From the NCBI RefSeq assembly GCF_009914755.1, contig NC_060935.1: a stretch of 64,000 nt of DNA; one strand, given 5' to 3'. A program made the position numbers and the translations under genes. Positions 42,445-42,749 of this stretch are shown here, in pieces (positions within the stretch are counted from its first letter, which is position 1; each line of letters begins with the position of its first letter). The notes under the pieces were generated by a model. That model saw nothing but the letters and a program-made list of their open reading frames with translations. It made no database searches and had not been told where the DNA came from. This DNA is from the human T2T-CHM13v2.0 reference genome, Homo sapiens.

Positions 42445-42540
42445 ATGCAAATAATATGCAAATAGAGATATGGAAATCACAAGCACACAGGGGTATATAA
42501 GCTGTGTGCAGGCATTTTTCCAGAATGGTGGTAGGTGAGT
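42445..42540 (+). promoter_or_regulatory. POU2F3: Candidate octamer-TATA promoter with micro first exon
   Basis: ATGCAAAT 42445, ATGCAAAT 42456, ATGGAAAT 42470, TATATAAG 42494, ATG 42525, donor TAG|GTGAGT after 42534. Confidence 0.5.
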
Positions 42541-42749
42541 GCAGTTGTAGGTAAGAAATGGACTTCAGGGAAGGGGCCAAACCTGAAGTTGGGGAGGAGA
42601 AGAAAAGGCCAGAAGGGGATGGGAGTTGGGGGAGTGTTGAATAGGAGGGAAGGAAGGAACAGAGGCTGAGAGTGTCCTGAGAGGGACCCCCTTGGGCCTC
42701 CAATAAGCCCTTGCTGGTCTCTTTCCTCACCCAGAAGAAACAAGAAAAA

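What the first reader, a model, noticed from the sequence alone, without database searches (positions are those of the whole stretch)
42445..42556. Candidate hidden third POU2F3 promoter: octamer-octamer-TATA driving a 10-nt coding micro-exon in frame with exon 2
Seen: two perfect octamers 11 bp apart (42445, 42456), a variant ATGGAAAT (42470), a consensus TATA box TATATAAG (42494-42501), then 31 bp after the first T an ATG (42525) and a near-perfect donor TAG|GTGAGT after 42534. ATG GTG GTA G is phase 1, like both recognised first exons, so splicing to exon 2 (51241) gives MVV-DIKMSGDV... A second strong donor TAG|GTAAGA follows at 42550/42551. Established: octamer plus TATA is the architecture of POU2-activated promoters such as immunoglobulin V genes, and POU2F3 binds ATGCAAAT. 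Inference: a cell-type-restricted (tuft cell / POU2F3-positive SCLC) positive-feedback promoter. The TSS would fall almost on the ATG, so translation may instead start at the exon-2 Met (MSGDV...), giving a shorter N-terminus. I do not recall this exon being annotated but cannot check.
Basis: partly seen in the sequence, partly recalled or inferred. Interest (0 to 1): 0.85.

Follow-up and report, generated by a model that had tools for sequence, protein, structure and literature searches.

The report
Tandem octamer–TATA module inside POU2F3
Two perfect POU-factor binding sites, a TATA box and splice-donor-like sequences lie 1 kb inside the POU2F3 gene; they most likely belong to the gene's self-activating control region, and whether they also start a hidden transcript is untested.

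Summary
Splicing 42525-42534 to exon 2 gives MVV-DIKMSGDV.

The octamers are not chance. The window holds 11 perfect ATGCAAAT against 1.58 expected. Seven of the 19 in 264 kb lie within 9 kb around the POU2F3 5' exons (Poisson P about 3e-7). Only 100 pairs with 11-bp spacing exist genome-wide, and two lie here, 1.2 kb apart.

The promoter reading rests on motifs alone:
- A TATA after a tandem pair occurs in 2 of 100 cases, about what chance gives.
- An in-frame ATG is common: 9 of 34 donor-like sites have one.
- The first exon would be only 8-13 nt, with the ATG 0-3 nt from the cap.
- RefSeq has no exon or element here and already lists three coding first exons, not two.
- Ten paper searches found no report of a start site here.
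- Mammalian conservation and expression could not be tested.

Best reading: an autoregulatory POU2F3/OCA-T docking module serving the annotated promoters (0.6). A productive third promoter is possible (about 0.2). An MVV-initiated protein is unlikely (about 0.03).

The parts
42445..42452 (+). perfect octamer ATGCAAAT (distal), A at position 5
42456..42463 (+). perfect octamer ATGCAAAT (proximal), start 11 bp after the first
42470..42477 (+). octamer variant ATGGAAAT (G instead of C at position 4); binding uncertain
42494..42501 (+). TATA-box match TATATAAG; the only TATAWAWR match between 40000 and 52000
42519..42524 (+). initiator-like TCCAGA (fits BBCABW, a consensus recalled from memory) with A at 42522, 28 bp after the first T of the TATA; the same bases also read as an acceptor-like TTTTTCCAG| ending at 42523
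   Evidence: both motif assignments made by eye
42525..42534 (+). ATG GTG GTA G: hypothetical 10-nt coding part of a first exon, phase 1
42532..42540 (+). donor-like TAG|GTGAGT, 8 of 9 consensus positions
42548..42556 (+). donor-like TAG|GTAAGA, 7 of 9 consensus positions; out of frame with exon 2 if the ATG at 42525 is used
41214..41243 (-). mirror-image twin: two perfect octamers plus ATGTAAAT at an 11-bp period, 187-216 bp upstream of the RefSeq exon-1a start (41430)
   Evidence: (I7, I11)
44832..44852 (+). perfect octamer plus inverted heptamer TTTGCAT, about 100 bp upstream of the exon-1b start (44932), inside a CpG island
45776..45783 (+). further perfect octamer in the 5' cluster
50161..50168 (+). 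further perfect octamer in the 5' cluster, about 440 bp upstream of exon 50605-50746

Best explanation
The segment 42445-42501 is a docking site for POU class 2 factors. In tuft-like cells these would be POU2F3 with its OCA-T coactivators; elsewhere possibly OCT1. It is one unit of a 9-kb cluster of seven perfect octamers wrapped around the alternative 5' exons of POU2F3. Its main job is positive autoregulation of the annotated promoters: exon 1a starts 1.0 kb upstream and the CpG-island exon 1b starts 2.4 kb downstream. The two sites are 11 bp apart, about one helical turn, so two complexes would sit on the same face of the DNA. The TATA, initiator-like and donor-like sequences just downstream may allow some local initiation, but that is not its principal function and it does not add a new protein isoform. 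Shown here: the motifs, their clustering and their rarity. Inferred: occupancy, the enhancer role and the target promoters.
For: - Octamer enrichment: 11 observed against 1.58 expected in the window. Seven of 19 in 264 kb lie within 9 kb, P about 3e-7.
- Tandem pairs are rare: 100 genome-wide with two here 1.2 kb apart in mirror orientation. At that density a second pair within +-5 kb has a chance of about 3e-4 (my arithmetic).
- Both annotated promoters also carry octamers upstream.
- The segment is single-copy and not repeat-masked.
- Both perfect octamers have the position-5 adenine that OCA-T recruitment requires (PMC12755459, passages).
- POU2F3 ChIP and ATAC signal at the POU2F3 locus falls on SWI/SNF inhibition, 'implicating its autoregulation' (10.1101/2024.01.21.576304, passages).
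- The partner gene POU2AF2 has two perfect octamers at -85 and -54 of its gene start.
- No RefSeq exon lies at the site.
Against: - No occupancy data with coordinates were available to me. Figures and supplements could not be seen.
- Conservation across mammals could not be tested.
- The downstream TATA, initiator-like element and two donors are more than an enhancer needs. Only 1 of 239 local TATA matches has two donor-like sites at +30..+90.
- Four of the 7 sites in 41500-51240 that match >=8 of 9 donor positions are real annotated donors. A good donor in this interval is therefore often used.
- RefSeq lists no enhancer element here either.
Confidence: 0.6

Rival explanations
1. One reading: a cell-type-restricted third promoter. 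Tandem POU2F3/OCA-T complexes at about -77 and -66 and TBP at -28 start transcription at about 42522-42527. A very short first exon is spliced from 42534 or 42550 to exon 2 (51241). Translation starts at the exon-2 Met (51249, MSGDV...) or, less likely, at the ATG at 42525 (MVV-DIKMSGDV).
For: - The octamer-to-TATA-to-initiator geometry matches immunoglobulin V-type promoters (recalled knowledge).
- The donors match 8 of 9 and 7 of 9 consensus positions, as good as the annotated ones (8 of 9 after 45163, 50746, 50989 and 51309; 5 of 9 after 41499).
- Two donors after a TATA occur once in 239 local TATA matches.
- The site is CpG-poor (observed/expected 0.14), as is typical of tissue-restricted TATA promoters.
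- Phase 1 fits exon 2.
- RefSeq already models a transcript whose coding region starts at 51249 (XM_054368341.1).
- A first exon of 8-29 nt would be hard to detect in short reads from a rare cell type (inference).
Against: - No RefSeq or Gnomon transcript uses it, although Gnomon found several minor 5' exons nearby.
- No paper was found (10 searches).
- TATA adjacency occurs at the chance rate genome-wide, 2 of 100.
- An in-frame ATG is common, 9 of 34.
- With the first donor the exon is only 8-13 nt and the ATG 0-3 nt from the cap or upstream of it. The MVV start is therefore improbable (inference from scanning-initiation rules).
- The second donor is out of frame.
Confidence: 0.2
2. The module has no function of its own. 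The octamer pair arose by an 11-bp slippage duplication, and the TATA, ATG and donors are coincidences noticed after the fact.
For: - Cluster A is scored by TRF as an 11-bp tandem repeat (2.7 copies), so such pairs can arise by slippage.
- TATA adjacency is at chance level.
- Frame evidence is weak.
- No annotation of any kind at the site.
Against: - The regional octamer excess has P about 3e-7.
- Two of the genome's 100 tandem pairs lie at the gene that encodes the protein binding them.
- The annotated promoters also carry octamers.
Confidence: 0.12
3. An internal cassette micro-exon of transcripts started at exon 1a. The acceptor-like TTTTTCCAG| ends at 42523 and the donors follow 42534 or 42550, giving an 11- or 27-nt exon that stops the exon-1a reading frame (a poison exon).
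For: A short pyrimidine tract plus AG lies directly before 42524, and two donors follow. Inclusion gives ...GEREWW* in the exon-1a frame.
Against: The pyrimidine tract is only 7 nt and no branch site was identified. The exon is not annotated. This reading leaves the octamers and the TATA unexplained.
Confidence: 0.05
4. A type-3 RNA polymerase III or snRNA-type gene promoter (octamer enhancer plus TATA) driving a small RNA.
For: Octamer plus TATA also occurs in U6/7SK-type promoters (recalled knowledge).
Against: - No Rfam family matches 42500-42730 at E <= 1 apart from one sub-threshold lncRNA-region hit on the minus strand at 42561-42755. The only solid hits nearby are Alu-derived SRP matches from 42752 on.
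- The octamers sit where a proximal sequence element would be, and I saw none by eye (not formally tested).
- The only T run (42515-42519) lies upstream of the predicted start.
Confidence: 0.01

Closest known systems
Immunoglobulin V-gene promoters (octamer at about -70, TATA at about -30, OCT1/OCT2 plus OCA-B)
   Same: Perfect ATGCAAAT with A at position 5 lies 59-77 bp upstream of the predicted start, and a TATA lies 28-31 bp upstream. The coactivator family is homologous: OCA-T to OCA-B (PMC12755459, passages).
   Different: No transcript is known to start here. The site has two tandem octamers rather than a heptamer plus an octamer. It lies inside an intron of the factor's own gene.
Annotated POU2F3 promoters 1a (41430) and 1b (44932)
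   Same: Both have perfect octamers upstream: a tandem trio at -187 to -216 and an octamer plus heptamer at about -100. Their first exons end in phase 1, as the candidate would.
   Different: The annotated promoters lack a TATAWAWR match and have transcript support in RefSeq. Promoter 1b is a CpG island with observed/expected 0.67 against 0.14 at the candidate.
POU2AF2 (OCA-T1) gene start
   Same: Two perfect octamers within 90 bp upstream of the annotated start, at -85 and -54. It belongs to the same regulatory circuit.
   Different: The orientations are opposed and the starts 31 bp apart, not tandem at 11 bp. No TATAWAWR at -30.
Autoregulatory elements of other POU genes, such as POU1F1/Pit-1 sites in its own promoter (recalled)
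   Same: Binding sites for the encoded factor cluster at the gene's own 5' end.
   Different: For POU2F3 the sites have not been mapped or mutated in any paper I could find. Autoregulation is only 'implicated'.

Membership tests
Octamer-dependent TATA promoter (Ig V type) | Canonical octamer with A at position 5, 50-80 bp upstream of the start site | tested here: met
   Octamers lie at 42445 and 42456, that is -77 and -66 relative to A42522. The start site itself is only predicted.
Octamer-dependent TATA promoter (Ig V type) | TATA box 25-35 bp upstream of a mapped transcription start | not testable with these tools
   The TATA is present, but no CAGE, RACE or read data were available.
Octamer-dependent TATA promoter (Ig V type) | Activity depends on a POU2 factor plus an OCA coactivator | not testable with these tools
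   Needs reporter or CRISPR experiments.
POU2F3 first exon | Donor of normal strength that leaves phase 1 into exon 2 | tested here: met
   The donor after 42534 matches 8 of 9 consensus positions. The product is MVVDIKMSGDV.
POU2F3 first exon | Transcript support in annotation | tested here: not met
   None of the 9 RefSeq or Gnomon POU2F3 mRNAs has an exon between 41500 and 44931. GENCODE, FANTOM5 and CHESS could not be checked.
POU2F3 first exon | Conservation of exon and donor in other mammals | not testable with these tools
   No mammalian genome other than this reference was available. A spliced protein query could not be typed because joined sequence is barred.
Autoregulatory enhancer / promoter-proximal element | Cluster of the factor's own motifs beyond chance at its own gene | tested here: met
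Autoregulatory enhancer / promoter-proximal element | Occupancy by the factor in expressing cells | tested here: inconclusive
   A preprint reports POU2F3 ChIP signal at the POU2F3 locus but gives no coordinates in the text. Figures and supplements could not be seen.
Type-3 Pol III / snRNA-type gene | Known small-RNA gene downstream of the TATA | tested here: not met
   No Rfam match in 42500-42730 on the + strand at E <= 1.

The most novel reading that the evidence does not exclude
POU2F3 carries a hidden, tuft-cell and SCLC-P-restricted TATA promoter fired directly by two POU2F3-OCA-T complexes sitting one helical turn apart. Its first exon is so short (8-29 nt) that short-read annotation misses it. 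It is the self-sustaining 'lock-in' start site of the lineage master regulator, and it yields a protein that begins at the exon-2 methionine.
Probability: 0.17. Interest if true: 0.65.

Novelty: new member of a known kind. Interest (0 to 1): 0.4.

Why it matters
[quoted passage not shown] Knowing the exact DNA sites through which the gene sustains its own expression would give defined targets for CRISPRi or reporter dissection of the feedback loop. It could also explain how SWI/SNF or OCA-T inhibition shuts the gene off. If the module is also a start site, isoform-specific read-outs of the 'locked-in' state would become possible. The protein consequence would be small, a change of a few N-terminal residues.

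Tried and rejected
1. Repeat or transposon origin. The 420-bp segment matches only itself in the genome and is not in the masked-repeat list. Rejected.

2. Inverted duplication linking clusters A and B. Only the 19-nt octamer cores pair up (I7 and I11), with no extended homology. Rejected as a segmental duplication.

3. Small-RNA gene downstream of the TATA. An Rfam scan of 40000-46000 gave only sub-threshold matches, mostly Alu-derived (SRP and miRNA families), plus a weak minus-strand lncRNA-region hit at 42561-42755. Rejected.

4. GFI1-like motif (recalled consensus). There were 12 matches at <=1 mismatch against 8.5 expected, so no enrichment. The candidate's third element does not match within one mismatch. 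A perfect match overlaps the exon-1b octamer at 44836.

5. Tuft-gene promoters. Of 20 gene starts (+-600 bp; the list is partly recalled and partly), 1 has perfect octamers (POU2AF2) and 19 have none. Promoter-proximal octamers are therefore not a general feature of these annotated starts.

6. Spacing preference. Spacers of 0-30 nt total 1431 pairs, a mean of 46 per spacing, against 100 for the 3-nt spacer. This is about a two-fold enrichment. The full distribution was not listed (only the first 100 rows), so repeat-family effects at other spacings are unquantified.

7. Literature. One search was poorly targeted, because min_terms 2 did not force the term POU2F3. Wu et al. 2022 (Nature) is not held. 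ChIP peak tables in closed supplements may cover this site.

8. Cross-species test through predicted protein isoforms. Not done. It needs a spliced (joined) protein query, which may not be typed, and single exons are too short for the length filter of the search for homologous proteins. No protein-database search, structure prediction or Atlas search was run.

Full report
OBSERVATION. The sequence is exactly as described. ATGCAAAT lies at 42445-42452 and 42456-42463 on the + strand, ATGGAAAT at 42470-42477 and TATATAAG at 42494-42501. The ATG is at 42525-42527, TAG|GTGAGT follows with the exon ending at 42534, and TAG|GTAAGA with the exon ending at 42550. Exon 1a (coding 41466-41499, 34 nt) and exon 1b (45136-45163, 28 nt) both end in phase 1. 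A script that joined 42525-42534 to exon 2 gave MVVDIKMSGDVADST.... The second donor gives an out-of-frame product, [14 protein letters not shown].... One correction: RefSeq already has three coding first exons (coding starts at 41466, 45136 and 50974) plus non-coding 5' exons (45489-48018, 50605-50746), not two.

ARE THE OCTAMERS MORE THAN CHANCE? Yes.
- The window has 11 perfect octamers, against a mean of 1.58 and a maximum of 5 in 100 dinucleotide-preserving shuffles.
- I fetched 100 kb on each side. The 264 kb hold 19 octamers, of which 7 lie in 41214-50168. The other 255 kb give 0.47 per 10 kb, so P(>=7 in 9 kb) = 3.4e-7.
- Same-strand pairs with a 3-nt spacer number 100 in the whole 3.1-Gb genome. 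Two are here, 1.2 kb apart and in mirror orientation (41214-41232 on the minus strand, 42445-42463 on the plus strand, I7). At that density, the chance of a second pair within +-5 kb of a first is about 3e-4 (my arithmetic).
- Pairs with spacers of 0-30 nt total 1431, or 46 per spacing. The 11-bp period is therefore about two-fold favoured. Only the first 100 rows were listed, so I did not see the full distribution.
- The 420-bp segment is single-copy and not repeat-masked. Two Alu elements begin 200 bp downstream.

CONTEXT. Each annotated promoter has octamers of its own.
- Exon 1a (start 41430) is preceded at -187 to -216 by three 11-bp units: two perfect octamers plus ATGTAAAT on the minus strand. 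TRF scores this as an 11-bp repeat of 2.7 copies.
- Exon 1b (start 44932) lies in a CpG island (observed/expected 0.67) and is preceded at about -100 by an octamer and an inverted heptamer.
- Further perfect octamers lie at 45776 and 50161.
- The candidate sits in CpG-poor DNA (observed/expected 0.14), like exon 1a (0.09).
The 5' end of POU2F3 is thus studded with sites for POU class 2 proteins. Passages of PMC12755459 state that OCA-T recruitment needs an octamer with adenine at position 5, which all these perfect sites have. Passages of preprint 10.1101/2024.01.21.576304 report POU2F3 ChIP, Pol II, H3K27ac and ATAC signal at the POU2F3 locus that falls on SWI/SNF inhibition, 'implicating its autoregulation'. 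The text gives no coordinates, and I could not see figures or supplements.

THE PROMOTER GRAMMAR: HOW STRONG IS IT?
For:
- The TATA is the only TATAWAWR match between 40000 and 52000.
- TCCAGA at 42519-42524 fits an initiator, with A at 42522, 28 bp after the first T of the TATA. This was assigned by eye against a recalled consensus.
- The donors match 8 of 9 and 7 of 9 consensus positions. Annotated donors score 8 of 9 (after 45163, 48018, 50746, 50989 and 51309) and 5 of 9 (after 41499).
- Of the 7 sites in 41500-51240 that match >=8 of 9 positions, 4 are annotated donors.
- Of 239 TATAWAWR matches on both strands of the 264 kb, 8 have a >=8-of-9 donor at +30..+90. Only 1, this one, has two >=7-of-9 donors.
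Against:
- Among the genome's 100 tandem pairs, 2 have TATAWAWR within 15-50 nt downstream. The local TATA density (4.5e-4 per base per strand) predicts about 1.6, so TATA adjacency alone is what chance gives.
- An open phase-1 ATG within 150 nt precedes 9 of 34 sites matching >=7 of 9 donor positions in the interval, so 'in frame' says little.
- A start at 42522-42527 makes the first exon 8-13 nt with donor 1, or 24-29 nt with donor 2.
- The ATG would be 0-3 nt from the cap, or not transcribed at all. By the rules of scanning initiation (established knowledge) it would be skipped in favour of the exon-2 Met at 51249. RefSeq already uses that Met as the coding start of XM_054368341.1.
Multiplying the local frequencies gives roughly 1e-3 to 1e-4 for the whole TATA-plus-donor arrangement after a given octamer pair. 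That is suggestive, but the estimate is post hoc.

WHAT IS MISSING.
- None of the 9 RefSeq or Gnomon POU2F3 mRNAs has an exon between 41500 and 44931, and no RefSeq functional element overlaps the site.
- Ten literature searches found no start site, exon, reporter or mutation at this position. These include one with the 19-nt core as a literal string (0 papers).
- PMC7113193 (passages) cites earlier work for three human transcripts from alternative promoters (hSkn-1a, d1, d2) and for rat Skn-1a/1i. I could not read those primary papers.
- No mammalian genome was available and a spliced protein query may not be typed, so conservation and predicted isoforms in other species were not tested.

OTHER READINGS.
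- The bases TTTTTCCAG| ending at 42523 look like a modest acceptor. An 11- or 27-nt internal exon spliced from exon 1a would stop that frame (…GEREWW*), making it a possible poison exon. This does not explain the octamers or the TATA.
- A Pol III or snRNA-type gene is disfavoured. There is no Rfam match on the + strand downstream of the TATA at E <= 1 and no proximal sequence element by eye.
- Neutral slippage duplication is possible for any single pair, but it does not explain the regional excess.

VERDICT. The part of the interpretation that says 'POU2F3 feeds back on its own gene through these octamers' is well supported by sequence statistics and agrees with published hints. The part that says 'this is a third promoter with a coding micro-exon' is a reasonable but unproven hypothesis. 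I put a productive start site at about 0.2 and an MVV-initiated protein at about 0.03. The most likely function is an autoregulatory POU2F3/OCA-T docking module serving the annotated promoters (0.6). It would be a new member of a known kind. Interest is moderate (0.4), higher (about 0.65) if the hidden start site proves real.

Noticed in passing
window 41214-41243 (- strand): Mirror-image twin of the candidate: three 11-bp units (two perfect octamers plus ATGTAAAT) 187-216 bp upstream of the RefSeq exon-1a start. TRF calls it an 11-bp repeat of 2.7 copies.
   Followed up: partly
window 44832-44852: The exon-1b CpG-island promoter has a perfect octamer and an inverted heptamer 14 bp apart. The octamer overlaps a perfect match to a recalled GFI1/GFI1B-type consensus at 44836-44845. 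A repressor and POU2F3 may compete there.
   Followed up: partly
window 44467-44481 and 50616-50630: Unannotated strong donor-like sites: CAG|GTGAGT (9 of 9) with the exon ending at 44475, 457 bp upstream of the exon-1b start, and AAG|GTAAGG (8 of 9) ending at 50624, inside exon 50605-50746.
   Followed up: no
genome-wide (G000), listed: The 100 tandem octamer pairs include sites near or inside SOX9 (two, at +32 and +62 kb), NRTN (triple), TINCR (triple), KAZN (array of 5 or more), PADI1/PADI3, ALOX12B, KRT78 and ITGA3. My impression, from recalled gene functions, is an epidermal and tuft-cell flavour. The spacer CAC occurs in 11 of 100 pairs (my count). No enrichment test was done.
   Followed up: partly
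L022:516-554 (G000 chr11:111,255,868-111,255,906): The POU2AF2 (OCA-T1) gene start is preceded by two perfect octamers at -85 (+) and -54 (-). None of 19 other tuft-related gene starts examined (+-600 bp) has one.
   Followed up: partly
window 59789-59796 and 60225-60232 (- strand): Two more perfect octamers lie in the POU2F3 intron / POU2F3-AS1 region. The one at 60225 lies inside the RefSeq 'K562 activating' enhancer element 60132-60426, and the one at 59789 is 22 bp from POU2F3-AS1 exon 59615-59767.
   Followed up: no
window 42515-42523: The acceptor-like TTTTTCCAG| directly abuts the candidate ATG. The same bases could therefore form an 11- or 27-nt internal exon that stops the exon-1a reading frame.
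   Followed up: partly
window 42731-43085 and 43341-43706: Two Alu elements lie just downstream of the module. They appear as masked repeats, as sub-threshold SRP/Alu-type Rfam matches and as direct-repeat families D1-D3.
   Followed up: yes
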